Source of the DNA: Oceanispirochaeta sp.
GTDB lineage: Bacteria > Spirochaetota > Spirochaetia > DSM-2461
Assembly: GCA_963666275.2 (NCBI GenBank)
Contig: CAXXOA010000001.1
Coordinates: 480,001 to 544,000 of the forward strand
DNA: 64,000 nucleotides
Direction of reading: 5' to 3'
Positions 2,835-20,474 of the stretch are shown piece after piece. The notes below the pieces were generated by a model. The model had not been told where the DNA came from. It was given only the letters and a program-made list of their open reading frames with translations, and ran no database searches. The number at the start of each line of letters is the position of its first letter. Positions within the stretch are counted from its first letter, which is position 1. The translations under genes and the position numbers were made by a program.

Positions 2835-2901
2835 GAAAAAGCCCTTTTTCTGCCAGATGAATGGAAAATGACCGATATCTGATGTATACAGGGTATTGTA
2901 T

Positions 2902-3174
2902 ATGGCTGAAATTGATCTGGATGAACAGTTTAAAAACTACCTTCTCACAACCTATCCTCTTTCAGAGTCTCTCCTTATGAACATTCTTGATGATCTGGGG
3001 GAGTATTTCGGAACCTCTTTGGAGGAGTATATCCCCGCAAGGCAGCGGGAACTCCATCAGCAGGGAAAGAAGAATGATGAGATTTACAGGATTATTCAGG
3101 AAGAAGTGAAGGGGAAACTGTTTCCCGGTCCAGATCTTTCCATAAGACAGATACGAAGAGCCATTTACGGTTGA
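2902..3174 (+). CDS. Small hypothetical protein immediately upstream of glmS
   Basis: About 90-aa ORF ending ...PDLSIRQIRRAIYG, 27 nt before the glmS ATG. Confidence 0.75.
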   Translation: MAEIDLDEQFKNYLLTTYPLSESLLMNILDDLGEYFGTSLEEYIPARQRELHQQGKKNDEIYRIIQEEVKGKLFPGPDLSIRQIRRAIYG

Positions 3175-3201: not shown

Positions 3202-5034
3202 ATGTGCGGTATTGTTGGATATCTGGGTAACAGGGACGCTGTTCCCGTTCTGATGCAGGGGCTGAAACAGCTGGAGTACAGAGGGTATGATTCATCGGGA
3301 ATCGGAGTGCTCCATAGAAAGAAAATCCGTGTTGTCAAAGAGAAAGGCAAACTGGATATGCTGGAGAAGAAACTGACCGAAGGCCTGGGATCCAATATCG
3401 GAATCGCCCATACAAGATGGGCAACCCATGGCGGGGTTACCACGGAAAATGCCCATCCCCATAGCGGACCGAAAGGCCTGGTTGCCGTGGTTCATAACGG
3501 TATCATTGATAACTTCGCTGTTCTGAAACAGGAACTGGAAGAGATGGGAAACACCTTCATCAGCGAAACAGACTCGGAAGTGGTGGCCCACCTTGTGGAA
3601 GCTTATATGGAACTGGGGCCTGAGCAGGCTGTCTCCAAAGCCCTCTCCCGTCTGGACGGAACCTATGGAATGCTCTTTCTTTTCCGGGATCATCCCGATC
3701 TGATTATAGGCGCCCGTAACGGAAGTCCTCTTGTTATCGGAATCGGCAAGGACGAAATGTTTTTCGCTTCCGATGCCCTGGCATTTGCCGGATACACCCA
3801 TCATGCCGTTTTTGTGGATGACGGAGAGATGGTCATCATGAACAGCAAAACCTACCGCGTTGTGAACCGGAACAATATCGTCATTGACAAGAGCGTGGAG
3901 GAACTGGTTCATCTGAAATCCAATGTGAAAGACAAGGGGAAGTACGACAGCTTCCTTGAAAAAGAGATCTTCGAGCAGCCCGACTCTGTTTTCCGTGCCA
4001 TGGGGCAGGGGGGACGGCTCCTTCCGGATTTCGGTACCGCCCTGTTAGGGGGCCTCAATATGGAGAAGCGGGAGTTTTATGACATCCGGAAAATCCATAT
4101 ACTGGCTATGGGAACTGCCATGCATGCGGGGGACCTGGCTAAATATATTATAGAAGATCTTGCACGCATTCCCGTGGAGGTCTCCGATGCTTCGGAGCTC
4201 TGCGGCGTCAATCCCATAGTCGATAAGGACACCCTTTTTATCGCCATCAGCCAGTCCGGTGAAACCCGGGATACCATCGCGGCTGTTCAGGAGATCAAAC
4301 AGAAAGGGGGCCGGGTCCTGGGAGTGATCAATGCGGTGGGTTCCACCCTGGCAAGACTGACCGACGGGGGAGCCTATATCCATGCGGGTGCCGAATACTC
4401 GGTGGCCAGTACCAAGGCTTTTACAAGTCAGGTTACAGTCCTGACCCTGCTGGCTTTGATGATCGGCCGGACAAGGGATATCTCCCTGAACAGAGGGAAG
4501 GAACTTGTCAGCGAGCTGATGCAGATTCCCGATAAAATCCGACAGATCCTGAGCCGGACCGATGAGATTAAAAAGATGGGTGAGTTCCTCAAGGATTACC
4601 AGAGTATCCTTTATATGGGACGGGGACTGAACTATCCCATTGCCAAAGAAGCGGCCCTGAAACTGAAGGAAGTTACCTATATCCATGCGGAGGCCTACAG
4701 TGCGGGCTCTCTGAAGCACGGTCCTCTGGCTCTGATCAGCGAAGAGATGCCTTCGGTCTTTATCTGTACCCGGGGAGAGTATCAGGAAAAAACCATAAGC
4801 AATATCCAGGAGGTCCGGGCCCGGAATGGCAAAGTCCTTGTGATTTCCAACTATGAGGATGAAAACCTGAGAAGTGTAGCGGATCAGCTCTTTGTGGTTC
4901 CCGAATCGGATCCTCTGCTGTCCCCGCTGCTTACCATGATCCCCTGCCAGCTGCTGGGGCTGTATGCGGCCGAAGCCCTGGGCCGGGATGTGGACCAGCC
5001 CAGAAACCTGGCCAAGTCGGTTACCACGGACTGA
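3202..5034 (+). CDS. glmS: Glutamine--fructose-6-phosphate aminotransferase
   Basis: MCGIVGY N-terminal Cys, LEYRGYDS, HTRWATHG, SQSGET, ASTKAFT, PRNLAKSVT. Confidence 0.97.
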   Translation: MCGIVGYLGNRDAVPVLMQGLKQLEYRGYDSSGIGVLHRKKIRVVKEKGKLDMLEKKLTEGLGSNIGIAHTRWATHGGVTTENAHPHSGPKGLVAVVHNGIIDNFAVLKQELEEMGNTFISETDSEVVAHLVEAYMELGPEQAVSKALSRLDGTYGMLFLFRDHPDLIIGARNGSPLVIGIGKDEMFFASDALAFAGYTHHAVFVDDGEMVIMNSKTYRVVNRNNIVIDKSVEELVHLKSNVKDKGKYDSFLEKEIFEQPDSVFRAMGQGGRLLPDFGTALLGGLNMEKREFYDIRKIHILAMGTAMHAGDLAKYIIEDLARIPVEVSDASELCGVNPIVDKDTLFIAISQSGETRDTIAAVQEIKQKGGRVLGVINAVGSTLARLTDGGAYIHAGAEYSVASTKAFTSQVTVLTLLALMIGRTRDISLNRGKELVSELMQIPDKIRQILSRTDEIKKMGEFLKDYQSILYMGRGLNYPIAKEAALKLKEVTYIHAEAYSAGSLKHGPLALISEEMPSVFICTRGEYQEKTISNIQEVRARNGKVLVISNYEDENLRSVADQLFVVPESDPLLSPLLTMIPCQLLGLYAAEALGRDVDQPRNLAKSVTTD

Positions 5035-5122
5035 TCTATTAGAGTTCCACTTCTGCTTCCATGGATATCTTTCCAGCGGAAGGGGATATCCTGATATTCA
5101 TTCAGAACCAAATAATTAGATA

Positions 5123-5154
5123 GGGGAATCTGCCGGTGCAGGTTCCCTTTTTTT
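5123..5154 (+). terminator. Intrinsic terminator after glmS
   Basis: GGGAATCTGC-CGGT-GCAGGTTCCC followed by a T tract. Confidence 0.75.
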
Positions 5155-5241
5155 CTTTCTTTTTTGAATCCCCCAATAATATCTATTACAATGAATTTAT
5201 ATATTACAAATATAATAATATATTTAAAGGTGAGGTACTAT

Positions 5242-5754
5242 ATGAAAAAAATACTGACACTGATTCATAACGATTTTGAAGATCTGGAATACTGGTACCC
5301 TGTTCTGCGGCTCAGGGAAGCCGGCTATACCGTTGACGTTGCCGGAGAAGAGAAGGATTTCAAATACATAGGCAAGTACGGAGTACCCGCATTTTCCAAT
5401 TTTGCCTACACAGATGTGAATGCATCCGAATATGATGGGCTCCTTATTCCCGGGGGATGGGCGCCTGATAAAATCCGGAGATTTCCGGAAGTTCTGGAAC
5501 TGGTGAGGCAGATGGATGAAGAGGGAAAGGTTATCGGCCAGATCTGCCATGCCGGATGGGTGACCATTTCGGCGGGAATCCTGCAAGGACGGGTTGTTAC
5601 AAGTACACCGGGAATCCGGGATGATATGGAAAATGCCGGAGCCCACTGGCAGGATGAACCGGTCGTTGTGGATAAAAATCTGGTCTCCAGCCGACGGCCC
5701 CCGGATATCCCGGCTTATATGAAGGCGTATCTGGAGGTTTTGGAAGCTTTATAG
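5242..5754 (+). CDS. PfpI/DJ-1 family protein (type 1 glutamine amidotransferase-like domain)
   Basis: FEDLE, IPGGWAPD, ICHAGW nucleophile elbow, SSRRPPD; start moved to MKKIL behind GAGG. Confidence 0.92.
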   Translation: MKKILTLIHNDFEDLEYWYPVLRLREAGYTVDVAGEEKDFKYIGKYGVPAFSNFAYTDVNASEYDGLLIPGGWAPDKIRRFPEVLELVRQMDEEGKVIGQICHAGWVTISAGILQGRVVTSTPGIRDDMENAGAHWQDEPVVVDKNLVSSRRPPDIPAYMKAYLEVLEAL

Positions 5755-6140
5755 ACAGATCCTCTATCTCCTTAAGGCGATCTCTTCCAAAACAGACTAC
5801 CATGGCCTCTCTTTCTTTTTCTGCCGGCAAAGCCTTTTCAGGACGGATCCTCCGGACAGGATAACTTTTGCAGCAAACTGAGTGTAAAGAGGTGATTCTC
5901 CTTCTTCCTTTGAACAACCATCCCATTGGACAGAAAAACTGTATCCCCCCTAAAATGGTACTTAAATGTATATTTTACGAATACGATAAACGAATATAAA
6001 TACGATGGTATCTATAGAATACGTTTAATATACTTTAAAATATCCGAAAAACATATTTTCCTATTGATTAAAACAGAGGAAATCAGTATTCTGGCAAAAT
6101 ATTTTTTGAATTATGAGTGTATAAATATTCATAATTCCTT

Positions 6141-6167
6141 CCGGGTAAGTGTCTTTCCCGGTTTTTT
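6141..6167 (+). promoter_or_regulatory. Terminator-like hairpin plus U tract in the leader of the DUF1445 operon
   Basis: CCGGGTAAG-TGT-CTTTCCCGG-TTTTTT ending 22 nt before ATG 6189. Confidence 0.4.
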
Positions 6168-6188
6168 ATTCTAAGTTACGAGGGTTTT

Positions 6189-6968
6189 ATGTATAAAACA
6201 GCCAAAGATGTTCGACAGGCCTGCAGAGTTCAGGAATGGACAGGCCCTACAGCCGGTCTGGCCAGGGGGCATGTTCAGGCCAACCTGGCTATTCTTCCGG
6301 CCGACTGGGCACAGGATTTTCTCCTGTTCGCCCAGAGAAATCCTAAACCCTGTCCTGTCCTTGAAGTAGGAGAGGCCGGTTCTCCCCTTACAAGTATCAT
6401 TGCGGAAAACGCCAATATCTGCACGGATCTTCCCAAATACCGTGTGTACAGGGACGGAGAACTCACCGAGGAGTGCTCTGACATTTCAGATCTGTGGCAG
6501 GATGACTTTGTTTTTTTCCTTATCGGATGCAGTTTTTCCTTTGAACAGGCACTCCTGGCGGATGGCCTGGAAGTCCGTCATATTACGGAAAATGTGAATG
6601 TACCCATGTACAGAACCAATCTGATGTGCCGGGATGCGGGACGTTTCAAAGAGGTTCCCATGGTTGTGAGCATGCGGCCCTATGAACCGAAAGATGCTAT
6701 CCGCTCCATAGAAATTACCCGGGATTTTCCTGCGGTACATGGAAGCCCCGTACACATTGCCAAACCGGAAATGATAGGCATTTCGGATATTAACACTCCC
6801 GATTACGGAGACGCTGTGACAATTAAAGAGAATGAAATACCCGTTTTCTGGGCCTGCGGTGTTACCCCCCAGTCTGCTGCGGTTGTGGCAAAGCCCCCCC
6901 TTATGATTACCCACGCACCGGGACATATGTTTATAGGAGATCTTTATGACAACGACTTTAAAATCTGA
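6189..6968 (+). CDS. DUF1445 / D-glutamate cyclase-family putative hydro-lyase (YcsI-like)
   Basis: QANLAILP, RNPKPCP, TDLPKY, GCSFSFE, MVVSMRP, FWACGVTPQ, ITHAPGHM. Confidence 0.92.
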   Translation: MYKTAKDVRQACRVQEWTGPTAGLARGHVQANLAILPADWAQDFLLFAQRNPKPCPVLEVGEAGSPLTSIIAENANICTDLPKYRVYRDGELTEECSDISDLWQDDFVFFLIGCSFSFEQALLADGLEVRHITENVNVPMYRTNLMCRDAGRFKEVPMVVSMRPYEPKDAIRSIEITRDFPAVHGSPVHIAKPEMIGISDINTPDYGDAVTIKENEIPVFWACGVTPQSAAVVAKPPLMITHAPGHMFIGDLYDNDFKI

Positions 6969-7851
6969 GTCTGTGAAGAGTCATGCCGATCAGGCCCGAT
7001 TCATAGAAAATCTGATTCAGCAGGACCCCGGAAAAAGGGGACTGGCAAACTGGGCTGTCCGGAATCATATCCTCCCGGCGACCGAGTCCCTGATGGGGGG
7101 AGAACACATCCTTCTGACTACAGGCTTTTTCATTAAAAATGCGGGGGTTATCGAGACTGACGGACCTCCCGGGGCCATTATCCTGGCGGATGCCCTCATC
7201 AAACTGGGTAAGTCTGTCACCATCATAGTGGATTCCCACTCTGTGGATATCATGAAAGCGGGATTTTCTTCCATCAACAGGGATATTGAGATCATCGGTT
7301 ATGACAGGGATGACAATCTTCTGGAGAAAAATCCTGTCCGCCCCGACACGACCCATTTTATTGCCATAGAGCGTCCCGGTCAGGCTGCGGACGGGAAATA
7401 CTACAATTTCAGAGGAGACGACATCTCTGCGGCTGTGTCTCCGGTGGATCAGCTTTTCCGCTACTGTTCCGGGAAGGGAATCGTGACCATCGGTATCGGC
7501 GACGGCGGGAATGAACTGGGTATGGGAATTGTTTCGGGCAATGTGGATCTCCATGTGGCTCCCGGCAGGGCTTTCAGCTGTAAAACCGATGCCCTCCACT
7601 GTGTGTGCGCCGGAGTCAGCAACTGGGCCGGTTACGGCAAAGCGGCTCTTCTCTCTCTGATGGCGGAAGAGAACCTTCTTCCCAGTCCCGAAGTCTTCGC
7701 CCGTATCCTGAATGCGGTGGTCGATGCAGGGGCGGTGGATGGCGTCAGCGGACGGCGGGAAGCCACTGTGGATGGCCTTGACGCCTCCTGGGAGTTCAAT
7801 CTGTTCGGACAGATGTACGATCTGGCATCCACCGCAGGAAAGGCCTGCTGA
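6946..7851 (+). CDS. DUF4392 / glutamate cyclase domain protein
   Basis: TTGF, ETDGPPGA, IERPG..DG.YYN.RG, IGIGDGGNELGMG, GVSNW, GAVDG. Confidence 0.88.
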   Translation: MTTTLKSESVKSHADQARFIENLIQQDPGKRGLANWAVRNHILPATESLMGGEHILLTTGFFIKNAGVIETDGPPGAIILADALIKLGKSVTIIVDSHSVDIMKAGFSSINRDIEIIGYDRDDNLLEKNPVRPDTTHFIAIERPGQAADGKYYNFRGDDISAAVSPVDQLFRYCSGKGIVTIGIGDGGNELGMGIVSGNVDLHVAPGRAFSCKTDALHCVCAGVSNWAGYGKAALLSLMAEENLLPSPEVFARILNAVVDAGAVDGVSGRREATVDGLDASWEFNLFGQMYDLASTAGKAC

Positions 7852-7852
7852 T

Positions 7853-8473
7853 ATGAAGATCTATCCGCTGGGAGACTCCTGCCTGTGCTGGTCCCTGTCC
7901 GATGGGATAGACCAGAAGATTTCAGCCAGAATCCTCGCTGTCTACCGCTTCCTCAAAGAGAGCGGCAGGGAAGAGAAGGGGATCCTCGATCTGGTCCCCT
8001 CCTATAATGCCCTGGCTGTGCATTTTGATCCTCTGACAACAGACAGCCAGGCACTGGAAGCCTATGTCTCCTCTGTGTTTGAAAGGGATTTTTCCGATGG
8101 AGCATTGGCCGGGAAAACCGTTGAAATTCCGGTCCGTTATGACGGAGAGGATCTTCAGCGGGTGGCGGATCTGCACAATATGACAGTGAGAGAGGTGATC
8201 GATCGACACAAGGGGAGTACCTTTACTGTTGCCATGGTGGGATTCCTTCCCAACTTTCCCTATCTGATAGGGCTGGATCCGGAACTGGAAACTCCCCGTC
8301 TCGACAGTCCCCGGGTCAAAGTGCCTGCCGGAGCTGTTGCCATCGGAGGCGCCCAGACAGGGATTTATCCGGCAGAATCCCCGGGAGGATGGAATCTCAT
8401 AGGATCCACCGATCCGGCTCATCTCTTATCCATCCAGCCGGGAGATACAGTCATTATGAAGGAGATAGATTGA
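7853..8473 (+). CDS. pxpB: 5-oxoprolinase subunit B (allophanate hydrolase subunit 1 / KipI-like)
   Basis: PLGD, DLVPSY, IPVRYDGEDL, GFLPNFPYL, PRLDSPR, GAVAIGG, YPAESPGGWNLIG; start at ATG 7853. Confidence 0.9.
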   Translation: MKIYPLGDSCLCWSLSDGIDQKISARILAVYRFLKESGREEKGILDLVPSYNALAVHFDPLTTDSQALEAYVSSVFERDFSDGALAGKTVEIPVRYDGEDLQRVADLHNMTVREVIDRHKGSTFTVAMVGFLPNFPYLIGLDPELETPRLDSPRVKVPAGAVAIGGAQTGIYPAESPGGWNLIGSTDPAHLLSIQPGDTVIMKEID

Positions 8474-9201
8474 TGCATATCAATTGCGATATAGGAGAAA
8501 GGGGTGCTGACCATCCCGTCGATAGAGAGCTGATGAATCACATCAGCCTGGCCAATATTGCCTGCGGAGGCCATGCGGGAGACAGGGAGAGCATTGAGGC
8601 TTTCCTCGCTCTGGCAAAGAAAAACAAGGTTTCTGTGTCTGCTCATTTATCCTATCCCGACAGGGAGAATTTCGGAAGATTTTCCATGGACATTTCAACC
8701 CGGGATCTTCTGAAGAGCCTGGACGATCAGTTTGCCCTGATGGGCGGGGCGGAAATGGTGAAATTCCATGGGGCTCTCTATAACGACTGCTGGGTAAACC
8801 GGGATCTCTCCAGAGATCTGGCCTCCTGGCTGAACAGTCAGGGTGTAAAGACAGTGGTCACTCCCTATCAGTCCTGTCTGGCCGAAGAGAGCCTGAATCT
8901 GGGAATGGATGTTTTATACGAAGCCTTTGCTGAGAGACGCTATGCCTATGATCCTGAAAAGGGGCAGCTGACCCTTGTCAGCCGGAATCTGGATTATGCG
9001 TCCATTCATGATCTGGATGAGGCCGTTTCCCACGCTATGCATATTCTGACCAATAAGGAAGTGGAGGGGCACATCTCTCTGGCGGATGGTTCGGTCAGAA
9101 AAGAACCCGTTGAGATCAAGGCCGATACGATCTGTATTCATTCGGATTCTCCTATTTCACTCGAACTGGCACAGCGGCTTTCGGGGCAGAACGCAGGCTG
9201 A
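8473..9201 (+). CDS. pxpA: 5-oxoprolinase subunit A (LamB/YcsF family)
   Basis: INCDIGE, ANIACGGHAGD, AHLSYPDRENFGR, KFHGALYN, TICIHSD; TGATG overlap with pxpB. Confidence 0.9.
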   Translation: MHINCDIGERGADHPVDRELMNHISLANIACGGHAGDRESIEAFLALAKKNKVSVSAHLSYPDRENFGRFSMDISTRDLLKSLDDQFALMGGAEMVKFHGALYNDCWVNRDLSRDLASWLNSQGVKTVVTPYQSCLAEESLNLGMDVLYEAFAERRYAYDPEKGQLTLVSRNLDYASIHDLDEAVSHAMHILTNKEVEGHISLADGSVRKEPVEIKADTICIHSDSPISLELAQRLSGQNAG

Positions 9202-9202
9202 T

Positions 9203-10060
9203 ATGTTCAAGATCAGAAAACAGGGTTTATACAAAACAGTCTCTCTTCCGGCTTTCGGAAATCAGGACGTGGGGATTACTCCGGGCGGAGCCATGGATCT
9301 TTTCGCCTATCAGACGGGAAATGTACTGCTGGATAACAGGCGGGATGCCCCGGCTCTGGAAATGCTTTTTCCCCCCACCCTGGAATTTGAACAGGACACT
9401 TTTTTTGTCCTGACCGGCTCCTCCTGTTTGGGAGTCCGGCTTTCTGGTCCCGGGGGAGAGCAGACTATCCATCACGGAGAGGTTTCTCTGGCCCGGGCCG
9501 GGAGCGTCCTCTCTTTCGGAAAGAGGAATTACGGATTCCGAACCTACCTCTGCTACCGCTCAGCCCGGGAGCTTTCCGGCTCGGAAAATCCCGTGGGAAG
9601 GAAGAGAGGCTCCATAGGAGAGATTGCCCGCTGGATGGATCCGAAAGGCTATATCCGAGTGGTTGAAGGGCCTGAATATGATTCTTTGAATGATAAAGAA
9701 CTCTTTTTCAGAGAATCCTGGAGAATCTCACCCGAGACAAGCGATATGGGAATGCGGCTGGAAAATCCCTGTCTCCCCCTGAGTGTCTCCATGGGGAATA
9801 TGGTTTCAGAGGCCGTCGCTTCCGGTACGGTTCAGCTGACTCCCAAAGGTCCGATCATTCTTATGAAACACAGACAGACTGTGGGAGGCTATCCCCGTAT
9901 TTTCAATGTCATATCAGCGGATCTGGATCTGCTGGGGCAGGTGATGCCGGGGCAGAAACTCAGTTTCAGAAAAGTCACTCACGAAGAAGCGGTAGATATT
10001 CTGCGTAGGCAGAAAGAAGATATTGAAACATTGCAAAAAAGGTTCCTTGTGGAGGTCTAG
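9203..10060 (+). CDS. pxpC: 5-oxoprolinase subunit C (allophanate hydrolase subunit 2 / KipA-like)
   Basis: GGAMD, GFRTYL, SDMGMRL, SEAV..GTVQL, QTVGGYPRI. Confidence 0.88.
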   Translation: MFKIRKQGLYKTVSLPAFGNQDVGITPGGAMDLFAYQTGNVLLDNRRDAPALEMLFPPTLEFEQDTFFVLTGSSCLGVRLSGPGGEQTIHHGEVSLARAGSVLSFGKRNYGFRTYLCYRSARELSGSENPVGRKRGSIGEIARWMDPKGYIRVVEGPEYDSLNDKELFFRESWRISPETSDMGMRLENPCLPLSVSMGNMVSEAVASGTVQLTPKGPIILMKHRQTVGGYPRIFNVISADLDLLGQVMPGQKLSFRKVTHEEAVDILRRQKEDIETLQKRFLVEV

Positions 10061-10062
10061 TT

Positions 10063-10923
10063 ATGGGAATTTATTATATCGACGGGAAATTTGTTCCTGA
10101 AAATGAAACGACAGTATTGGCGAAGGATATAGCTGTTTTGCGCGGTTATGGTGTTTTTGATTTTATGCGGACATACAACAGGCGTCCCTTTCATCTGGAA
10201 GATCATATCGCCAGACTCCGGAATTCCGCCGATCTGATCGGTCTGGAGCTGAGATGGTCCGATGAGGAAATCGCTCAGGCTGTTTACGATACCATGGATA
10301 AAAATCCCGGGTATGAAGAAGCGAATATCCGTATTGTTGTGACCGGAGGAGAGAGTTCCAACGGTGTTCTTCCCGAAGGAAAGGGAAAGCTCATTGTCAT
10401 GGTTACGGAAAAGCACTCCCTCCCTGACTGGTGGTACACAGACGGCGCTCCCGTTATTACCGTGGATATTGAACGGTATATTCCCGAAGCCAAAAGTATC
10501 AACTATATGAATGCGGTTATGGCTCAGCAGAAAGCTGTCAAAGCCAAGAGCATTGAAGCGATTTATGTCGATAAGGACAACCGGGTTCTGGAAGGAACCA
10601 CAACCAATATTTTCTGCTTCAAAGGCAATAAAATCATCACTCCCGGAAAGGATATTCTCAACGGGATCACAAGAAAAGTCGTCCTGGAAATGGTAGGGGA
10701 TATGTACGATCTTGAAATCCGGGATATCCTGAAGGATGAACTGAAAGATTTTGATGAAATTTTCATTACCGCATCCAACAAGGAGATCGTTCCTGTAAAC
10801 AGAATTGATGATCTTGTGATCGGAAATGGAAAACCCGGTCCCAAAACCCTGGCTGTTATGGATGCCTTCAGAGAGCTGACCGGAGCTTATGGAAAAGCTG
10901 AGCTCGAAGCCGCCGCGGTTTAA
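10063..10923 (+). CDS. Class IV PLP aminotransferase, probably a D-amino acid aminotransferase
   Basis: RGYGVFD, HIARL, KSINY (PLP Lys), EGTTTNIF, ILNGITR; adjacent to alr. Confidence 0.85.
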   Translation: MGIYYIDGKFVPENETTVLAKDIAVLRGYGVFDFMRTYNRRPFHLEDHIARLRNSADLIGLELRWSDEEIAQAVYDTMDKNPGYEEANIRIVVTGGESSNGVLPEGKGKLIVMVTEKHSLPDWWYTDGAPVITVDIERYIPEAKSINYMNAVMAQQKAVKAKSIEAIYVDKDNRVLEGTTTNIFCFKGNKIITPGKDILNGITRKVVLEMVGDMYDLEIRDILKDELKDFDEIFITASNKEIVPVNRIDDLVIGNGKPGPKTLAVMDAFRELTGAYGKAELEAAAV

Positions 10924-10926
10924 GCT

Positions 10927-12060
10927 ATGCTTCCTGAGCATGTGATACAGGCGGATATTGATCTGTCTGCTGTTCAGCACAATGTCACTGTTTTAAAGGG
11001 GCACATTGGTCCTGCTGTTAAACTGGCGGCTGTGGTGAAGGCCAATGCCTACGGGCACGGGGCTGTGGAAGTGGCGGAAGCCGCTGTCCTGGGCGGTGCT
11101 GAATACCTTGCGGTTGCAAGGTATTCGGAGGCACTGGAACTGCGGGAAGGGGGCATAAAGGCTCCTGTCCTGATCTTCGGCCATACCCCTCCCGTTCTGG
11201 CAGAGACTATTGCCCGGTACGGCCTGACGCCGGTGGTCAATTCCCTCCAGGAGGCCCGGACGCTCTGTGAAGCGGCGGCTGCCCTGGAGGAAATCATCAC
11301 AGTTCATGTCAAAATCGATACGGGTATGGGCCGTGTGGGCCTGCCCGGCGCTTCTGTTGAAGAGACTGTTGCGGATGTGCTGAGGATCCATGATCTTCCC
11401 GCTCTCCACCTGGAGGGTATCTTTACCCATTTTGCCAATGCTGATTCAGCGGATAAAACTCATGTAAAAGAACAGTTCTCCCTGTTCTCCCGGATTCTGG
11501 ACTCTCTGGAGGAGAGGGGATTGAGGATTCCCATCCGTCATGCCGCCAACAGTGCGGCAACCCTAGAGTTCCCCGAGTCTCATCTGGATATGGTCCGTCC
11601 CGGGATTGTCCTCTACGGGCTGGCCCCTTCGAAAGATGTGGACATGACGCGTCTGCCTTTAAAACCTGTGATGTCTCTGAAGACAAAGATCATTCATCTG
11701 AAAAAAGTCCCGTCGGACTTTAAAATCAGTTACGGCAGTACCCATGTCACTGAGCGATCAACAAGGATCGCCACAGTCCCTATCGGCTATGCAGACGGGT
11801 TCAGCCGGCTTCTCTCTTCAAAGGGATTCATGCTTGTCAAAGGCAAAAGAGTTCCTATTGTCGGAAGGGTCTGTATGGATCTTACCATGATCGATGTCGG
11901 GGATGTTGAAAATGTCAGGGTGGGGGATGAAGTCGTCGTATTCGGTCCCCAGGAGGATCAGTATCTTGCTGCTGATGAACAGGCGGATCTGGAAGGAACC
12001 ATCAATTATGAAGTGGTCTCCACTCTGACATCCAGGGTTCCCCGGGTGTATCTCCGCTAG
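10927..12060 (+). CDS. alr: Alanine racemase
   Basis: AVVKANAYGHG, HVKIDTGMGR, HAANSAA, GYADG, GRVCMD, TINYE. Confidence 0.97.
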   Translation: MLPEHVIQADIDLSAVQHNVTVLKGHIGPAVKLAAVVKANAYGHGAVEVAEAAVLGGAEYLAVARYSEALELREGGIKAPVLIFGHTPPVLAETIARYGLTPVVNSLQEARTLCEAAAALEEIITVHVKIDTGMGRVGLPGASVEETVADVLRIHDLPALHLEGIFTHFANADSADKTHVKEQFSLFSRILDSLEERGLRIPIRHAANSAATLEFPESHLDMVRPGIVLYGLAPSKDVDMTRLPLKPVMSLKTKIIHLKKVPSDFKISYGSTHVTERSTRIATVPIGYADGFSRLLSSKGFMLVKGKRVPIVGRVCMDLTMIDVGDVENVRVGDEVVVFGPQEDQYLAADEQADLEGTINYEVVSTLTSRVPRVYLR

Positions 12061-12099
12061 TCCCGGTTCAAACCGTCCGAGGGGCCCCCGGATAGGGGG

Positions 12100-12984
12100 T
12101 CACTCCAGAATCAGCTCTTTCAGAAATTTCAGACAGCTGTGAACCGCCGGCTGGTCGGAGAGTTCAAAAGCCTCTTTCAGTGATACCACCTTCCGGAGTC
12201 TCTCCTCTCTTTCATCCCACTGCTTTCTCAGCTTGCTCACCTCGATGGGAAAGGCAAGCATATTGATATAGTCGCTTCCTCTTTTGTAGGGAATCCTGAT
12301 GGGACGATGGGTCACGGTCCCTTCCACTCCGGCCTCTTCGTAGGCTTCCAGCAGGGCCACTTCTTCAAAGGTTTTCCGGCTCTCCTGATGGCCTTTGGGA
12401 AAAATCCAGTGATGGTTGTTCCGTTTCGTTACCAGAATGACCCGGAGTTTTCCTTTCTTCCAGAAGTAGGGAATCGTACCCACAACTCCCTTGTTCATTC
12501 CCGAGGGGAGGAGCTGATGGAGCTGATGAGCATCGATCCTGGCGAGGGAGCGGTTCATATACCTTTTGTCAAAGGTTACCTCTTCGCCGAAATAGGGCGG
12601 CGGCTGGAATAGGGCTGCTTCTTTTTTATCAACGAATTCCACTTCCGCAGTGTACAGCCCCTGCAGGGAGCCCTGGTAGGCATCAATTTCCACTTCCATT
12701 TCCTGCCATAGGGTTGTATAGCGGATTTTCTCAAGACGAAGCCCTTCCGTTGCTTCCCAGAAAAGGTCAAACTGGGACTGGCTTATTTCCGTTTCCAGCT
12801 CCTTCCGGCGGAGACCCGATCCGATTTTCACAGTCTGGTAACAGGTCTTCTCTTTCTGACGGAGCCGGACTTCTCTGTCCTTTTCCAAAGCCAGATATCC
12901 CTGTTTTATCCGGGCTTTCTGTATATATTTCAAATCCTCCGGGAGCGTCTCCAGTAGAAATTTTCTTTCAATTTCATGATTCAT
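12100..12984 (-). CDS. CYTH domain - NUDIX hydrolase fusion
   Basis: EIERKFL (CYTH ExExK), KQGYL, EKIRY, AEVEF; C-terminal WIFPKG...EAYEEAGV Nudix box; AGGAG before ATG 12984. Confidence 0.88.
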   Translation of the reverse strand: MNHEIERKFLLETLPEDLKYIQKARIKQGYLALEKDREVRLRQKEKTCYQTVKIGSGLRRKELETEISQSQFDLFWEATEGLRLEKIRYTTLWQEMEVEIDAYQGSLQGLYTAEVEFVDKKEAALFQPPPYFGEEVTFDKRYMNRSLARIDAHQLHQLLPSGMNKGVVGTIPYFWKKGKLRVILVTKRNNHHWIFPKGHQESRKTFEEVALLEAYEEAGVEGTVTHRPIRIPYKRGSDYINMLAFPIEVSKLRKQWDEREERLRKVVSLKEAFELSDQPAVHSCLKFLKELILE

Positions 12985-13377
12985 ACTCCTACTATATAAA
13001 AAATAAATCACTTGGTCTTTACTTGTCTGCCTGGAAATCTTCCAACATTTCATCTCTTCCTCTCATCAGAGAGGAAATAAGAATCCTTTTCCGGATGGAA
13101 TGTGAATATTTACATAATAATTGGTCTATATATAACTATAAAAATATAATGATAAAAAAATATTGACAACTCCTGAATGGTGCTGTTTAAATAGTAATTA
13201 CACAATATATATTTCCTTTAATATTTATAAACACCAGGATTGAATCTTAAAATCTGCTTTTAAAAAAAAAGGAGTTTTTCTTTCGCAACAGATTTTAAAG
13301 GATTACGATTAAAGGAATAGCCTACCCCGATTTACTTATAACTGGAAACTTTACTACTAAAAAAATGGAGGAATTCT

Positions 13378-13869
13378 GTGAAGTTTAAAACCGCCGTTAT
13401 TTCGCTTGTGTTGGGCCTGCTGTTCTGGCTCGGTCTGAACGGCAGTTCTGATCCGGGAGTACTTATTGCAGGGGCTGCCGTTGCGTTCATCGCGGCGTCA
13501 TTCCATGTGAAATCTCCTGTCCTGGGAGATCTAAGGCTCACACCCAAAGCGCTCTTCGCCTTCCTGGCCTGGATGTTTGTTTTTGCTTTTGAACTGATCA
13601 AATCCAATATCGACGTGATGTTCCGGGTTATCTCTCCCCGGGTAAGGATCAATCCGGCCATTGTGGAAGTCAAAACCAGGCTGAAGTCTCCTCTGGGACG
13701 ACTGGCCCTGGCAAATTCCATCACTCTCACACCGGGAACACTCACGGCGGATATCAGGGATGACAGCCTTTTTATCCACTGGATCGATGCCTCCACCACC
13801 AATGTGGAAGAGGCCACTGATGCTATCGTGGCAAAGTTCGAAAAACATCTGGAGGTGATCTTTGGCTGA
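13378..13869 (+). CDS. mnhE: Na+/H+ antiporter subunit E (MnhE/MbxA-like)
   Basis: LANSITLTPGTLT, IHW; GTG start. Confidence 0.9.
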   Translation: MKFKTAVISLVLGLLFWLGLNGSSDPGVLIAGAAVAFIAASFHVKSPVLGDLRLTPKALFAFLAWMFVFAFELIKSNIDVMFRVISPRVRINPAIVEVKTRLKSPLGRLALANSITLTPGTLTADIRDDSLFIHWIDASTTNVEEATDAIVAKFEKHLEVIFG

Positions 13870-14122
13870 CCAGATTCTTATGATTGCGGTCCTGATCTCC
13901 CTGGGGAGCATCGGGATCATTCTTATCCGGTTTATACTGGGACCTTCTGTTCTGGACAGGGTCGTGGCCTTTGATGCAGCCGGTATCATCGGGATTTCCC
14001 TGATTGTTCTGCTCTCCCATTTTCTGGAAAGGGTCATCTATGTGGATGTGGCTCTTGTTTATGGCCTGCTCAGTTTTATCGGTGTCCTGGTTGTGGCCAG
14101 GTATCACGAAAGGGGGCTTTGA
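13862..14122 (+). CDS. mnhF: Na+/H+ antiporter subunit F (MnhF-like)
   Basis: GPSVLDRVVAFD, DVALVY..LSF.G. Confidence 0.9.
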   Translation: MADQILMIAVLISLGSIGIILIRFILGPSVLDRVVAFDAAGIIGISLIVLLSHFLERVIYVDVALVYGLLSFIGVLVVARYHERGL

Positions 14123-14458
14123 ATGGAAATGTTAGGCGCAATCCTTGCCCTGATGGGATCAATAATCTTTCTGATCAGTGCTTTGGGATTAATCCGTATG
14201 CCCGACCTGTACAACAGGATTCAGACGGGAACCAAAGCCACCACCCTGGGAACCATACTCCTTGCGGTGGGGCTCTGTCTTGTTCACCCCGCATGGACGG
14301 GAAAGCTAGTAATCCTGATGCTTTTTATACTGCTGACCAACCCGATCTCCTCTCATGTGGTGGCCAGGGGAGCCCATTACAGCGGTCAGGAAATGACAGA
14401 GAAAACCATTAATGACGCTCTGGCGGAGGAAGATCCTCAGAAGGAGGTGACAGCATGA
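14123..14458 (+). CDS. mnhG: Na+/H+ antiporter subunit G (MnhG-like)
   Basis: GLIRMPDLYNR...TKATTLG, TNPISSH. Confidence 0.9.
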   Translation: MEMLGAILALMGSIIFLISALGLIRMPDLYNRIQTGTKATTLGTILLAVGLCLVHPAWTGKLVILMLFILLTNPISSHVVARGAHYSGQEMTEKTINDALAEEDPQKEVTA

Positions 14459-14700
14459 CTGTGATTTTTCTTATCGTGGCACTCTTTACGCTTGTTCTGG
14501 CTCTTTATGCGGTTCTGACAAAAGACAGAACCGTGGCCGTCCTGTCGGCGGGAGCTGCCGGGCTGTTCGCTTCGATCCTGTTTATCATGATGGCTGCTCC
14601 GGATGTGGCCATGACCGAAGCGGCCATCGGAAGCGGTTTGACCACATTTATCTTTTTCTTTGCTCTGAAAAAAGTGAAAAGGGGGCAGGGGAATGGTTAG
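14455..14700 (+). CDS. DUF4040 / MbhD-like membrane subunit
   Basis: APDVAMTEAAIG motif, three hydrophobic helices. Confidence 0.85.
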   Translation: MTVIFLIVALFTLVLALYAVLTKDRTVAVLSAGAAGLFASILFIMMAAPDVAMTEAAIGSGLTTFIFFFALKKVKRGQGNG

Positions 14701-15394
14701 GAAAGGTTTTATTCTTCTTATGATCCTGGCCCTGGGAGCTCTTTTCTGGGATTTTGCAGGGGAATACGCAAGCCGTCAGGTTCTGCCTGAAGTCTCCGCC
14801 CACTATGTGGAACAGGGACCGGAAGAGCTGGGAGCACCCAATGTGGTTACCTCCGTGGTTGTAACCTACCGGGGGCTGGATACCCTGGGAGAAGTGACGA
14901 TCCTTTTTGCCGCCGCAGCGGTAGTGGGTCTTCTGCTCCATCTCAAGGGAAATGAAAACGAAAAAAGGCGGGAGGGGAGTGAGCTGCTGCAGACCGGAGC
15001 AGCCCTTCTGTTTCCTCTGATCCTGCTGTTCGGCGTGTATGTCTTTATGAACGGGCATCTTACACCGGGGGGTGGTTTTCAGGGCGGCGCCATCATCGCA
15101 TCGGCTGTGGTCCTGTCAGCTCTTGCCCATCCCGACAGAAAGGGGAATCACACTGTCCTTTCTCTGATCGAATCCCTCTCCGGGCTGAGTTATGTCATCC
15201 TGGGGGCGGCGGGAGTCTTCCTGACAGTCAATGGGTTTCTGGATAATCGGATCCTCCCTCTGGGCAGGTATGGTTCCCTCTTCAGCGCCGGGCTGATCCC
15301 TGTGATCTACTCTGTGGTGGGGCTCAAAGTCGGTGCGGAGCTCAGCTCCGTGGTGGTTTCTCTGAAAGGAGAACCCGGGGAGGAGAGGGTATGA
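14693..15394 (+). CDS. mnhB: MnhB-family subunit (MbhE+MbhF-like fusion)
   Basis: NVVTSVVVTYRGLDTLGE and GHLTPGGGFQGG. Confidence 0.88.
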   Translation: MVRKGFILLMILALGALFWDFAGEYASRQVLPEVSAHYVEQGPEELGAPNVVTSVVVTYRGLDTLGEVTILFAAAAVVGLLLHLKGNENEKRREGSELLQTGAALLFPLILLFGVYVFMNGHLTPGGGFQGGAIIASAVVLSALAHPDRKGNHTVLSLIESLSGLSYVILGAAGVFLTVNGFLDNRILPLGRYGSLFSAGLIPVIYSVVGLKVGAELSSVVVSLKGEPGEERV

Positions 15395-15741
15395 TAGGTA
15401 ATATTGCCCTTGTAACCGGGGTTCTGCTGATCCTTATCGGACTGTGGGGACTCCTGACCAACAAAGATATGATCCGCATGATTGTGGGATGCTCTCTTTT
15501 TGACCTGGGTGTGCATATTGTGATGCTCAGTGTGGGATACATAAGCGGCGGCACGGCCCCGATTGTCGAAAAGCTTGCAGATCCAGGTAAAACCTATGTG
15601 GACCCGGTTCCCCAGGCTCTTGTGCTGACTGCTATTGTGATCGGCCTGGGAATCACCGCTTTCATGCTGACCTATGCGGTGAGTCTCTATGAAAAAAAAG
15701 GGACCCTGGACATTGACAGGTTTGAGGAGCTGAAATGGTAA
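15391..15741 (+). CDS. mnhC: MnhC / NuoK-like subunit
   Basis: DPVPQALVLTAIVIG. Confidence 0.9.
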   Translation: MIGNIALVTGVLLILIGLWGLLTNKDMIRMIVGCSLFDLGVHIVMLSVGYISGGTAPIVEKLADPGKTYVDPVPQALVLTAIVIGLGITAFMLTYAVSLYEKKGTLDIDRFEELKW

Positions 15742-18700: not shown

Positions 18701-18866
18701 ACTGGAATATCCTTTTGTCACCCGGTTCTGGAGCGGCCTCAGTGATATCCTTCACGCCCTGAGCGGTTTCTTCCGGAGGGTTTATACGGGAAACGGACAG
18801 ACCTATCTGCTGCAGATGGTCGTATTTGTGGTCGTCACCTATATGCTGACCAGAGGAGGAGTGTGA
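15735..18866 (+). CDS. Double antiporter-like subunit (two fused MrpD/NuoL-M-N-type proton-translocating modules)
   Basis: 1043 aa; two sets of motifs: DLFNLFVFIE..WGLDVYEAA..RLLGYSSISQ and FFYAWE..HTWLPGAH..KRLLAWSSIGQ. Confidence 0.88.
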   Translation: MVNPIFLIVIALGTAFLLGLFRKASVSLRSGLTLLALAAMTAVSALWVYGIFSGSTPGMDVFTAGFKPPLSISLSLGKTEAVLLLLVNLTAFMSMLFLRKEVQSTSVYMLMLLMVFVTGLNAVVMTRDLFNLFVFIEIVSIASAGLIALKSDLRQLSAGFKFVIAGALASGFMLLGIIFVYYSTGSLNLDVIASTLPAALASAGFAGIFLVFIGMIMELKPFPVNGWGLDVYEAAQPPVAALVAAGTGSVMFYAFIKVMAVLGGHFTGAAIVIGGATFVGMNILALKQEKARRLLGYSSISQMGLLVMAYGLLRQTGAPRPDVILFGLLITHALAKAGLFWIAGLVEKENIRDWALIRRNPAALLAMILAVFGLTAFPPFPSFFAKWELVMALAGKGGFGFIAVILVGSFLEAVYLFRWLGYALKLDFSRDEPFNTSSLSAVPSLLFGLILVGLGYFMGTPYGISWIPLGAVLGFLVLDRLDSRIKNTFALIVIGAFGYLNYTHYMGDLFKVIFAGVFIGGAFLTTLSGYYYKGRRAGFHASTMSMFFGLFMLLSAQTMLQFFYAWEFMAIGSYFLLIRGKKSMPHGYSYLMFSIGGSFAMLMGFAMAYLSSGSAGMDALHHISVYPAVAYSLLLIGFMTKTATMGFHTWLPGAHGEAVADIHFMASAILLKAGVLGIIYVLLGMDLNTAYSHWILLTLGWLGILSSLIGNVNAAFQESAKRLLAWSSIGQLGYIVFGLSTMSHMGWLIALSLSITHFLYKGILFLIIGGISLKLGTPMMYKMGGMIRKMPFSFLAVLIAIITLSGIPPLVGFTAKWILYNVTVGNGLYFQGVIASFAGLVAFLYLFRLIFSIFLGQLKDEHRKVGEINIWFLIPVYLLITYIIVVSFLPGTLLGPIGDKLMAFFPENPIIWEGYLAKSELGYFNGTMIMNVFMTLFVVNFLILFLMNRKRAQKVEQFNIVYAAERPARPETTHFAYNFFAPYRRAVGVLEYPFVTRFWSGLSDILHALSGFFRRVYTGNGQTYLLQMVVFVVVTYMLTRGGV

Positions 18867-18867
18867 G

Positions 18868-19806: not shown

Positions 19807-19808
19807 TT

Positions 19809-20474
19809 ATGGCAAAGATGAATTATGGAAAACGCAAAGCCGATCTGGAAAGACGGACTGTGACGGGACCCGACGGGGAAACCTTTGAAGTGGATCCCAT
19901 GAAAGACTACTTTTCCCAGGAGCCCCCGAAGGTCTACGAACCTTCCAGGCTGACTCCCATGGAAAAATTCTACAACTGGTGCCGGGCCGAATCCATCTAT
20001 ATCCTGGGGTTCGGAACCGGATGCGGCGCCATCGAGATGCGGCCCCTTATGAGCCCCATGTACGATGCCTACCGCTACGGTATCCACTGGCGTCCCACGC
20101 CCCGGCAGTCCACGGTTTTTGTGATCGGCGGTTATGCCTCGGTCAAAACCATCAAAAGGATTGTCCGCAGCTATGAACAGATGCCCGGACCCAAATACGT
20201 TCTGGCTGTCTGCAGCTGCACCATCAACGGCGGCATGTACTGGGACTCCTACAACACAATCAACCGGCTGGATCACTACATACCAGTGGATGTTTATGTC
20301 ACAGGCTGTATGCCCCGGCCCGAAGCGATTCTGGATTCTGTAGAGACTCTGAAAAAAAGGATCAAAGAGGGACGGGCCGAAGGGCAGAATAAATATGCGG
20401 AAAATTTCGACTGGTACAAGGCGAATCAGAAGAAAATCATAAAAGACTGGGATATGCCCGACTACAACTGGTAA
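19809..20474 (+). CDS. NuoB-like Fe-S small subunit (MbxJ-like)
   Basis: GCGAIEM, TPRQS, YEQMPGPKYV, SCTINGG, PVDVYVTGCMPRPEA. Confidence 0.9.
   Translation: MAKMNYGKRKADLERRTVTGPDGETFEVDPMKDYFSQEPPKVYEPSRLTPMEKFYNWCRAESIYILGFGTGCGAIEMRPLMSPMYDAYRYGIHWRPTPRQSTVFVIGGYASVKTIKRIVRSYEQMPGPKYVLAVCSCTINGGMYWDSYNTINRLDHYIPVDVYVTGCMPRPEAILDSVETLKKRIKEGRAEGQNKYAENFDWYKANQKKIIKDWDMPDYNW

What the first reader, a model, noticed from the sequence alone, without database searches (positions are those of the whole stretch)
6189..12060. Seven-gene operon suggesting a complete D-glutamate / D- and L-pyroglutamate pathway
Seen: DUF1445, DUF4392, pxpB, pxpA, pxpC, a class IV aminotransferase and alr, overlapping or 1-3 nt apart. 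Established: mammalian D-glutamate cyclase (DGLUCY) carries both DUF1445 and DUF4392; PxpABC is the ATP-dependent 5-oxo-L-prolinase; DUF1445 next to pxp occurs in Bacillus (ycsI). Here both DGLUCY halves are adjacent separate genes and are joined by a probable D-amino acid aminotransferase and a racemase. Inference: 5-oxo-D-Pro <-> D-Glu (split cyclase); D-Glu + pyruvate -> 2-oxoglutarate + D-Ala; D-Ala -> L-Ala; Pxp handles the L form or is D-specific. This would salvage peptidoglycan- or polyglutamate-derived D-Glu and would assign roles to two DUFs.
Basis: partly seen in the sequence, partly recalled or inferred. Interest (0 to 1): 0.75.

Follow-up and report, generated by a model that had tools for sequence, protein, structure and literature searches.

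The report
D-glutamate balancing operon with split cyclase
A spirochaete keeps seven tightly packed genes that join a D-amino-acid-making pair to the two separately encoded halves of the animal D-glutamate cyclase and an ATP-driven ring-opening enzyme, most likely a way to make D-glutamate and to drain its excess back to L-glutamate, but no step has been measured.

Summary
The seven genes are real, intact and packed as described. The same order occurs in 7 other genomes from two phyla, and 3 more have it without alr. DUF1445 and DUF4392 tile a vertebrate D-glutamate cyclase at 39% identity each. The aminotransferase has the group II D-amino-acid transaminase arginine pair, not the branched-chain motif.

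The operon is two separable modules. The transaminase-alr pair also occurs without the DUF/pxp block, beside capA-like and ddl-like genes. It holds the only alr found in three carriers, two of them with no murI found.

The two DUFs look like separate enzymes. DUF1445 is fused, without DUF4392, to both unrelated oxoprolinase types and keeps two cysteines. Best guess: D-Glu -> 5-oxo-D-Pro (DUF4392) -> 5-oxo-L-Pro (DUF1445) -> L-Glu (Pxp, ATP). All chemistry is inferred. My paper searches found no description of the operon, but this scan has reported it before on other DNA (e1-2960080, e1-2955776, e1-5207746).

The parts
5755..6188 (+). A+T-rich upstream gap, presumed promoter region (tentative)
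   Evidence: 35% GC, 28% in 5931-6188. Sigma-70-like matches at 5927-5956 and 6106-6135 are consensus matches only and are not conserved in relatives.
6189..6968 (+). DUF1445 / YcsI (PxpI) family protein, homologous to the N-terminal half of animal D-glutamate cyclase; conserved Cys114 and Cys223; proposed 5-oxoproline D/L bridging enzyme (inferred)
   Evidence: PF07286 and NF003969 over cut-off; 39% to snake DGLUCY residues 38-270; both Cys in 240 of 240 nearer homologues; fold of 2PIF/3DB9
6946..7851 (+). DUF4392 / GLUCM-like C-terminal protein with an intact two-metal acidic site; proposed D-glutamate cyclase catalytic unit (inferred)
   Evidence: PF14336; 39% to snake DGLUCY residues 306-545; E70, D72, E142, D186, E190 and D276 match the six acidic ligands of TON_0340 and are invariant in 36 of 36 aligned (PMC5132392)
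7853..8473 (+). PxpB-like 5-oxoprolinase subunit
   Evidence: PF02682; TIGR00370 141.4 bits, cut-off 145.55; fused to DUF4392 in 4 of 120 listed homologues
8473..9201 (+). PxpA-like (LamB/YcsF) subunit of a divergent clade
   Evidence: PF03746; best NCBIfam model 183.5 bits, cut-off 213; separate clade with support 100/100
9203..10060 (+). PxpC-like subunit, short (285 aa)
   Evidence: PF02626; below TIGR00724 and NF045499 cut-offs; nearest solved chain YbgK 5DUD
10063..10923 (+). PLP fold-IV aminotransferase, probable group II (non-canonical) D-amino-acid transaminase
   Evidence: R27, F32, R90, catalytic K144 and K240 align with R28, F33, R90 and K241 of the Haliscomenobacter enzyme; BCAT Y31, G38 and Y95 absent (PMC10003956, PMC12429042)
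10927..12060 (+). Alanine racemase, second copy in this genome
   Evidence: TIGR00492 over cut-off; K38 and Y269 present; another alr at C1:1533374
12080..12105 (+). G+C hairpin between alr and the convergent gene; possible weak terminator (tentative)
   Evidence: No U-tract and not better than shuffles (z -0.78)

Best explanation
A housekeeping D-glutamate balancing operon built from two modules. Module 2 (transaminase plus Alr): Alr interconverts L- and D-Ala, and the group II D-amino-acid transaminase moves amino groups between D-Ala (or other D-amino acids) and 2-oxoglutarate, giving D-Glu. Module 1 (DUF1445, DUF4392, PxpBAC) removes surplus or spontaneously cyclised D-Glu. The Mn-site protein DUF4392 closes D-Glu to 5-oxo-D-proline. 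The two-cysteine protein DUF1445 turns 5-oxo-D-proline into 5-oxo-L-proline. PxpABC opens that with ATP to L-Glu. The net result is a one-way, ATP-paid D-Glu to L-Glu drain that also repairs both ring forms. Shown here: genes, order, conservation, modularity, homology, residue conservation and fusions. Inferred from characterised relatives: transaminase, Alr and Pxp chemistry. Only hypothesised: which half cyclises, the DUF1445 reaction, and the direction of flux.
For: Transaminase motif R27/F32/R90/K240 is kept in all 9 full-length operon copies examined besides the window's. The equivalents bind D-Glu in AmicoTA and Halhy (PMC10003956 and PMC8401098, passages). A different, canonical-motif D-amino-acid transaminase sits beside DUF4392 and a canonical PxpA in G219, which looks like independent recruitment. 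The same-clade transaminase-alr pair occurs without the DUFs in G366 and G367, followed by PGA_cap, Asp/Glu-racemase-like and D-Ala-D-Ala-ligase-like genes. The operon alr is the only alr found in G262 and G290, and the only one in G291 follows the transaminase. G290 and G291 have murD but no murI match. Of the 120 listed longer DUF1445 proteins (146 found), 23 are fused to OplA/B-type oxoprolinase domains and 7 to PxpC or PxpBC, none of these 30 with DUF4392; 56 are fused to DUF4392, in both orders. So DUF1445 is tied to oxoprolinases independently of DUF4392. L-oxoproline use does not need it: C. difficile lacks pxpI yet grows on oxoproline (10.1101/2024.05.01.592088, passages), and pxpTABC is the cluster reported as essential in C. 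glutamicum (PMC13274462, abstract and passages). Cys114 and Cys223 each sit between a strand and a helix start in the model. DUF4392-PxpB fusions arose at least twice (p-AU 3e-74). No conserved importer or regulator flanks the operon.
Against: No reaction was measured. DUF1445 has no structural match to known two-cysteine racemases (only 2PIF/3DB9 and an NrpR domain, Z 9.9), its internal symmetry is not significant (probability 5% or less), and the Cys-Cys distance could not be measured. Among distant single-domain relatives the cysteines are not universal (Cys114 in 100 of 108, Cys223 in 91 of 96 aligned). Fish and snake DGLUCY keep both cysteines, yet the mouse enzyme was reported to make 5-oxo-D-proline and humans excrete it (PMC5339696); this is awkward if that domain racemises it. 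TON_0340, the only solved DUF4392, was assigned as a weak Mn phosphatase (PMC5132392). DUF4392 had none of the operon's partners nearby in 24 of 37 dereplicated metagenome loci with enough flank. This genome has murI, a second alr and a second group II-like transaminase, so it does not need the supply module. The Pxp subunits are divergent and below cut-offs, so L-specificity is assumed. The transaminase's best-scoring solved relatives and NCBIfam model are BCATs, and motif positions 34 and 36 (F, R) depart from the published group II consensus ([TY], [LA]).
Confidence: 0.4

Rival explanations
1. One reading: catabolic salvage. DUF1445 and DUF4392 form one heterodimeric cyclase that opens 5-oxo-D-proline to D-Glu; the transaminase passes the nitrogen to pyruvate; Alr makes L-Ala; Pxp handles the L ring in parallel.
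For: The two halves tile DGLUCY in the same order and overlap by 23 nt. DUF1445 lies within 400 nt of DUF4392 in 32 of 80 metagenome loci. Group II transaminases run D-Glu plus pyruvate fast (PMC8401098). This genome has murI and a second alr, so its operon copies are free for catabolism. One locus has a D-aminoacyl-deacylase-like gene upstream of the DUF pair (L033, below cut-off).
Against: Ring opening without ATP is uphill (recalled chemistry; knockout mice accumulate D-Glu, PMC5339696). No conserved importer, peptidase or regulator. The halves occur and fuse independently. The operon alr is the only one found in three carriers.
Confidence: 0.2
2. The divergent PxpABC is D-specific: it opens 5-oxo-D-proline to D-Glu with ATP, repairing or feeding the cell-wall D-Glu pool, and the DUFs act on the same D pool or supply it from the L ring.
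For: PxpA forms a separate 100/100 clade, and 11 of its 13 rows come from loci of this operon type. All subunits are below cut-off. A P. putida PxpABC paralogue acts on butyrolactam, so specificity can shift (10.1101/2021.12.09.472016, passages). MurD-like fusions to DUF1445, with or without DUF4392, exist (7 of 120).
Against: A D-specific ring opener beside a D-Glu cyclase would make a futile ATP cycle. It is the only Pxp found in this genome and no OplB was found. The same clade occurs in G017 without either DUF. The DUF pair also sits with canonical PxpA (L048-L054, L066).
Confidence: 0.15
3. Two modules that share a promoter but no metabolite: an ordinary oxoproline-repair block, whose DUFs do something else (for example a Mn phosphatase), next to an ordinary dat-alr pair.
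For: The transaminase stands alone at the syntenic site in G008, G009 and one G007 locus. Dat-alr occurs without the block in G366 and G367. The block occurs without the transaminase in most distant loci: transaminase near DUF4392 in 3 of 80, alr in 2 of 80.
Against: The six-gene core is kept across two phyla, and the transaminase, PxpA and DUF1445 trees group the window with the same neighbours. A second transaminase type was recruited beside DUF4392 and pxpA in G219. DGLUCY is a tested D-Glu enzyme (PMC5339696).
Confidence: 0.15
4. The aminotransferase is an L-branched-chain or other non-D enzyme, so the D theme rests on the DUFs alone.
For: Top PDB hits (E 1.7e-43) and the top NCBIfam model are BCATs, and R36 sits where BCATs have R40.
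Against: All NCBIfam models are far below cut-off. BCAT Y31, G38 and Y95 are replaced by R, F and N. A full BCAT-motif gene is at C1:161425. The gene pairs with alr in several contexts.
Confidence: 0.05

Closest known systems
Vertebrate mitochondrial D-glutamate cyclase DGLUCY / C14orf159 (PMC5339696; title, results and discussion read)
   Same: Both domains, same order, 39% identity each to a snake orthologue; metal ligands and both cysteines shared.
   Different: Two separate genes here, inside an oxoprolinase-transaminase-racemase operon. No activity shown for either bacterial half in the papers I could search. Split gut-bacterial homologues are already listed in one table row of PMC11580864 (6 split, 0 full-length; passage seen).
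Bacillus subtilis pxpA-ycsG-ycsI(pxpI)-pxpB-pxpC operon and PxpABC 5-oxoprolinase (seen through passages of PMC10448178, PMC13274462 and 10.1101/2024.05.01.592088; the original Niehaus 2017 paper was not held)
   Same: PxpABC with a DUF1445 gene (PF07286 and PF03746 both ring in B. subtilis).
   Different: No PF14336 in B. subtilis or any of the 14 control genomes. Here there is no transporter or regulator, the Pxp is divergent, and DUF4392, a transaminase and alr are added.
Group II D-amino-acid transaminases of Haliscomenobacter hydrossis (7P7X) and Aminobacterium colombiense (8AYK)
   Same: First-shell and second-shell arginines and the beta-turn lysine.
   Different: F34 and R36 replace Y/T and L/S; Thr replaces the Arg/His of beta-turn 1; untested.
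Thermococcus onnurineus TON_0340 (DUF4392; 4FC5, 5GL4; PMC5132392, first two of four parts read)
   Same: All six acidic metal ligands.
   Different: Assigned as a low-activity Mn phosphatase before DGLUCY was identified; here it lies in a D-Glu context.
Alr plus Dat route of D-Glu synthesis (stated in the introduction of PMC8401098)
   Same: Adjacent transaminase and alr, in two carriers with no murI found.
   Different: Joined to a cyclase / oxoprolinase block, and redundant with murI in this genome.

Membership tests
D-glutamate cyclase (DGLUCY) | PF07286 and PF14336 domains homologous to the animal enzyme | tested here: met
D-glutamate cyclase (DGLUCY) | Both domains in one polypeptide | tested here: not met
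   Two ORFs in different frames with a 23-nt overlap, and separate ORFs in relatives too
D-glutamate cyclase (DGLUCY) | Six acidic metal ligands in the DUF4392 domain | tested here: met
   PMC5132392
D-glutamate cyclase (DGLUCY) | Converts D-Glu to 5-oxo-D-proline | not testable with these tools
   needs an assay
PxpABC 5-oxoprolinase | PF03746, PF02682 and PF02626 subunits encoded together | tested here: met
PxpABC 5-oxoprolinase | NCBIfam curated cut-offs for PxpA, PxpB and PxpC | tested here: not met
   183.5 against 213, 141.4 against 145.55, and 149.9 against 230.2 (141.3 against 500); filed as a divergent Pxp-like enzyme
PxpABC 5-oxoprolinase | ATP-dependent opening of 5-oxo-L-proline | not testable with these tools
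   needs an assay
Group II D-amino-acid transaminase | First-shell Arg and second-shell Arg/Lys (RxxxxF ... xR) | tested here: met
   R27, F32, R90 (PMC12429042 Table 1)
Group II D-amino-acid transaminase | Beta-turn Lys that binds the gamma-carboxylate in AmicoTA | tested here: met
   K240 (PMC10003956)
Group II D-amino-acid transaminase | Published consensus [TY] and [LA] at the last two positions of motif 1 | tested here: not met
   F34 and R36 (PMC10003956 Table 2). The published members vary here (S, A, L), so this marks a variant.
Branched-chain aminotransferase | YxxxxFxGxR and YxR motifs | tested here: not met
   R27, F34 and N88 at those places; the paralogue at C1:161425 has the full motif
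Alanine racemase | TIGR00492 cut-off; catalytic Lys and Tyr | tested here: met
Cofactor-independent two-cysteine racemases (for DUF1445) | Two conserved cysteines | tested here: met
   240 of 240 nearer homologues; 100 of 108 and 91 of 96 in distant single-domain ones
Cofactor-independent two-cysteine racemases (for DUF1445) | Fold of DAP epimerase / proline racemase or Asp/Glu racemase | tested here: inconclusive
   Not listed among the fold-search rows; no Pfam match to these families
Cofactor-independent two-cysteine racemases (for DUF1445) | Cysteines facing each other across the substrate site; racemisation | not testable with these tools
   No coordinates were returned and there was no assay

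The most novel reading that the evidence does not exclude
DUF1445 / YcsI is a cofactor-free two-cysteine 5-oxoproline racemase of its own fold. With the DUF4392 cyclase and an ATP-dependent oxoprolinase it forms a one-way D-Glu to L-Glu ratchet that needs no glutamate racemase. Animal DGLUCY would then be a two-enzyme fusion whose second activity has been overlooked, and the many DUF1445-oxoprolinase fusions would be machines for using both mirror forms of pyroglutamate.
Probability: 0.3. Interest if true: 0.8.

Novelty: new variant of a known kind. Interest (0 to 1): 0.55.

Why it matters
D-glutamate cyclises like L-glutamate, but my searches found no bacterial route for 5-oxo-D-proline, no tested function for the widespread YcsI/DUF1445 family, and no assignment of the cyclase activity to one half of DGLUCY. 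Two small soluble separate halves, next to the enzymes that would make and remove their substrates, make all three questions testable with simple chiral assays. If the loop is right, it is an undescribed metabolite-repair and stereo-inversion route with a bearing on animal D-glutamate handling. For this window alone the gain is modest, because the scan has already reported the same operon elsewhere.

Tried and rejected
Co-folding DUF1445 with DUF4392 and Mn gave no verdict (score 0.00, controls not folded); it is not used either way.

Fold searches listed no racemase or epimerase fold for DUF1445, which does not exclude a racemase. The internal-repeat test put the two cysteine motifs in register but without significance.

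No conserved upstream element in alignments of 6 and 7 upstream regions; no Rfam match in 5000-13400; the downstream hairpin is no better than shuffles.

'No murI, so the transaminase is essential' is rejected for this genome (murI over cut-off at C1:1472692). OplB-type oxoprolinase and pyroglutamyl peptidase were not found in this 97% complete genome. The idea that an Asp/Glu racemase regularly replaces DUF1445 beside DUF4392 found only one case (G173) among 103 of the 229 dereplicated neighbour ORFs that I scanned plus 30 chosen later; not supported. The genome-contig scan used a single query and returned only 4 loci, so cross-phylum sampling is thin.

Paper searches: DUF1445 / DUF4392 / D-glutamate cyclase (40 of 47 listed); pxpA / 5-oxoprolinase / ycsI; oxoproline epimerase or racemase, pxpI, 5-oxo-D-proline (no listed paper had the epimerase or racemase phrases, 40 of 349 listed, noisy); ycsI / kipI / 5-oxoproline; D-glutamate + catabolism + pyroglutamate + bacteria + oxoprolinase (0 papers); UPF0317 and related terms (30 of 101 listed, noisy). 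None described this operon. Subscription papers are not covered: Niehaus 2017 was not held, and the follow-up enzymology of DGLUCY was not seen. No supplements were read; those of PMC5339696 (assay details) and PMC11580864 (which genomes hold split homologues) may bear on the claims.

Full report
Observation. The window lies at C1:480001-544000 of a 5.27-Mb, 97% complete genome. Seven intact ORFs run from 6189 to 12060 with gaps of -23, +1, -1, +1, +2 and +3 nt. Pfam names them DUF1445, DUF4392, PxpB, PxpA, PxpC, class IV aminotransferase and alanine racemase. Only DUF1445 and Alr pass NCBIfam cut-offs; the three Pxp subunits and all aminotransferase models do not. None has a membrane segment. 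Co-transcription is inferred from spacing alone.

Conservation. Of 40 relatives, 8 have a DUF4392 match. Four carry all seven genes (G004, G007, G014, G019), three carry the first six (G001, G002, G006), and one has a lone distant copy (G008). DUF1445 is found in the same 7 relatives and not in the other 33. In an even sample of the phylum, 4 of 251 genomes, this one included, had PF14336; one of them, G262, has the full operon. Two genomes of another phylum, G290 and G291, have it too, the latter across two contigs. Further out the link loosens. Of the best 80 of 441 confirmed metagenome loci, DUF1445 was adjacent to DUF4392 in 32, a pxpA gene near in 14, the transaminase in 3 and alr in 2. 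After dereplication, and keeping loci with at least 1.2 kb on both sides, 24 of 37 had none of these partners. The seven-gene form therefore belongs to one mobile clade.

The two DUFs. They align to residues 38-270 and 306-545 of a snake D-glutamate cyclase at 39% identity each. DUF4392 keeps all six acidic ligands of the Mn site of TON_0340 (PMC5132392), which makes it the natural cyclase site (inference). DUF1445 has the fold of 2PIF/3DB9 and otherwise only an NrpR domain as a clear match. Cys114 and Cys223 are present in 240 of 240 nearer homologues, whereas two other cysteines vary. In more distant single-domain representatives they are present in 100 of 108 and 91 of 96 aligned. Of 28 two-domain proteins, 25 show both and 3 do not cover one site; these include fish, snake, cnidarian, sponge and echinoderm proteins, and no mammal was among the 10 that I named. 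Among the 120 listed longer DUF1445 proteins, sorted by me from their Pfam columns, 56 are fused to DUF4392, in either order, all with both cysteines and all six acids. Another 23 are fused to OplA/B-type oxoprolinase domains and 7 to PxpC or PxpBC, without DUF4392. PF07286 rings in B. subtilis and C. glutamicum, while PF14336 rings in none of the 14 controls. DUF4392 has fused to PxpB at least twice (4 of 120 listed; p-AU 3e-74 on a quick tree). The simplest reading is two autonomous enzymes for neighbouring steps, with DUF1445 tied to whichever oxoprolinase is at hand. Since C. difficile uses oxoproline without pxpI (10.1101/2024.05.01.592088, passages), DUF1445 is not an essential oxoprolinase subunit. 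A step that feeds the oxoprolinase from the D ring fits. I recall that the B. subtilis genome annotation calls pxpI a putative D-5-oxoproline epimerase; no call confirmed that label, only the name pxpI.

The aminotransferase. By score its nearest solved relatives are BCATs (E 1.7e-43), followed by the group II D-amino-acid transaminases 7P8O/7P7X and 8AHR/8AYK (E about 1e-37). The specificity residues decide. It has R27, F32, R90 and K240, matching the arginine pair and beta-turn lysine that bind D-Glu in those enzymes (PMC10003956, PMC8401098, PMC12429042; passages and tables), and it lacks BCAT Y31, G38 and Y95. F34 and R36 depart from the published group II consensus. The pattern holds in all 9 full-length operon copies examined besides the window's, and a full BCAT-motif gene and a second group II-like gene lie elsewhere in this genome. 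In G219 a canonical-motif transaminase sits beside DUF4392 and a canonical PxpA, a separate recruitment.

Modules and direction. The same-clade transaminase stands alone at the syntenic site in G008, G009 and one G007 locus. With alr but without either DUF it occurs in G366 and G367, followed by PGA_cap, Asp/Glu-racemase-like and D-Ala-D-Ala-ligase-like genes. The operon alr is the only one found in G262, G290 and G291, and the last two have murD but no murI match, with completeness not given. There the pair most plausibly supplies D-Ala and D-Glu. This genome has murI and a second alr, so here the pair is redundant and could run either way. Flanking genes differ between carriers and include no conserved importer or regulator, unlike the TRAP-plus-GntR pxp loci of G020 and G024. 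That points to internal housekeeping and away from feeding. In mice, loss of the cyclase raises D-Glu (PMC5339696), and oxoprolinases need ATP (PMC13274462), so ring closure is the downhill direction; the size of that equilibrium is recalled, not looked up.

Mechanism. Best model (0.4): Alr and the transaminase set the D-Ala/D-Glu pool. DUF4392 cyclises surplus D-Glu, DUF1445 inverts the ring, and PxpABC opens it with ATP to L-Glu. That the operon handles D-Glu or its ring at all I put near 0.75; the uncertainty is in the wiring. Against the model: there is no assay and no racemase-like fold, the cysteines are not universal, and vertebrate enzymes keep both cysteines although 5-oxo-D-proline is the reported product and is excreted (PMC5339696). 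TON_0340 was assigned as a phosphatase, and the Pxp here is a divergent clade (100/100) whose stereospecificity is unknown.

Comparison and novelty. Every part belongs to or resembles a known family. It works like DGLUCY plus a Bacillus-type ycsI-pxp locus plus a dat-alr pair. It is not a member of the fused DGLUCY architecture and fails the curated Pxp cut-offs. Split bacterial homologues of DGLUCY appear as one table row in PMC11580864 (passage). My paper searches found no description of this operon or of a bacterial 5-oxo-D-proline route, within a library that lacks most subscription papers. PMC8142540 and PMC11673721 were seen as passages only and added nothing decisive. This scan has reported the same seven-gene operon (e1-2960080, e1-2955776) and a six-gene form (e1-5207746) on other DNA. 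These notes are unchecked and are not counted as support; my supply reading was noted, before I saw e1-2960080.

Verdict: real and conserved; a new variant of a known kind; interest 0.55.

Noticed in passing
L020:9065-10612 (G007); proteins P0075, P0084, P0107, P0112: DUF4392 fused to PxpB, with at least two separate origins.
   Followed up: yes
proteins, e.g. P0283, P0314, P0250, P0309, P0264, P0268, P0352: DUF1445 fused to OplA/B-type oxoprolinase (23 of 120 listed), PxpC or PxpBC (7), MurD-like domains (7), an O6-methylguanine methyltransferase DNA-binding domain (12, unexplained), LysR (2) and DctP (1).
   Followed up: partly
L164:7375-13416 (G366) and L165 (G367): Operon of group II-like transaminase, alr, PGA_cap (CapA/MslH-like), Asp/Glu-racemase-like, D-Ala-D-Ala-ligase-like ATP-grasp and N-formylglutamate-amidohydrolase-like genes; it may build a D-amino-acid polymer or small peptide.
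   Followed up: partly
G290-G315 (same class as the Bacteriovoracaceae genome G291): A block of 26 genome handles with no murI over cut-off, most with no close relative of this transaminase; their D-Glu source is unexplained. Completeness is not given.
   Followed up: no
L112, L113, L114 against L017, L018, L019: One chromosomal site carries the transaminase with or without the five-gene DUF/pxp block; G007 has the empty site and a full operon elsewhere.
   Followed up: yes
window 6189-12060: The window's operon proteins are closer to copies in another genus (DUF1445 85%) and about as close to copies in another phylum (71%) as to four of the five same-genus copies (67-71%), which suggests lateral spread.
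   Followed up: partly
P0367, P0368, P0372, P0379, P0389, P0396: Choanoflagellate, sponge, cnidarian and echinoderm proteins carry both domains with both cysteines, contrary to the statement in PMC5339696 that DUF1445 is kept only in vertebrates.
   Followed up: partly
L106:6275-9421 (G173): A DeoC-like / Asp-Glu-racemase fusion gene precedes DUF4392 and a branched-chain-type ABC transporter, with no DUF1445 in the 18 kb read.
   Followed up: partly
L109:7392-9578 (G017): The divergent Pxp clade without either DUF, behind an unannotated 242-aa ORF.
   Followed up: partly
L003:5440-6813 (G019): murD lies directly upstream of the operon on the same strand in one relative.
   Followed up: no
window 12100-13053 (-): Convergent 317-aa ORF with a C-terminal NUDIX domain; its N-terminal part looks CYTH-like (recalled resemblance, no Pfam hit).
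   Followed up: no
window 2896-3174 and 13378-20474: A 92-aa ORF with no Pfam match before glmS; downstream a run of membrane-protein ORFs that look like an Mrp/Mbh-type cluster (by eye, not scanned).
   Followed up: no
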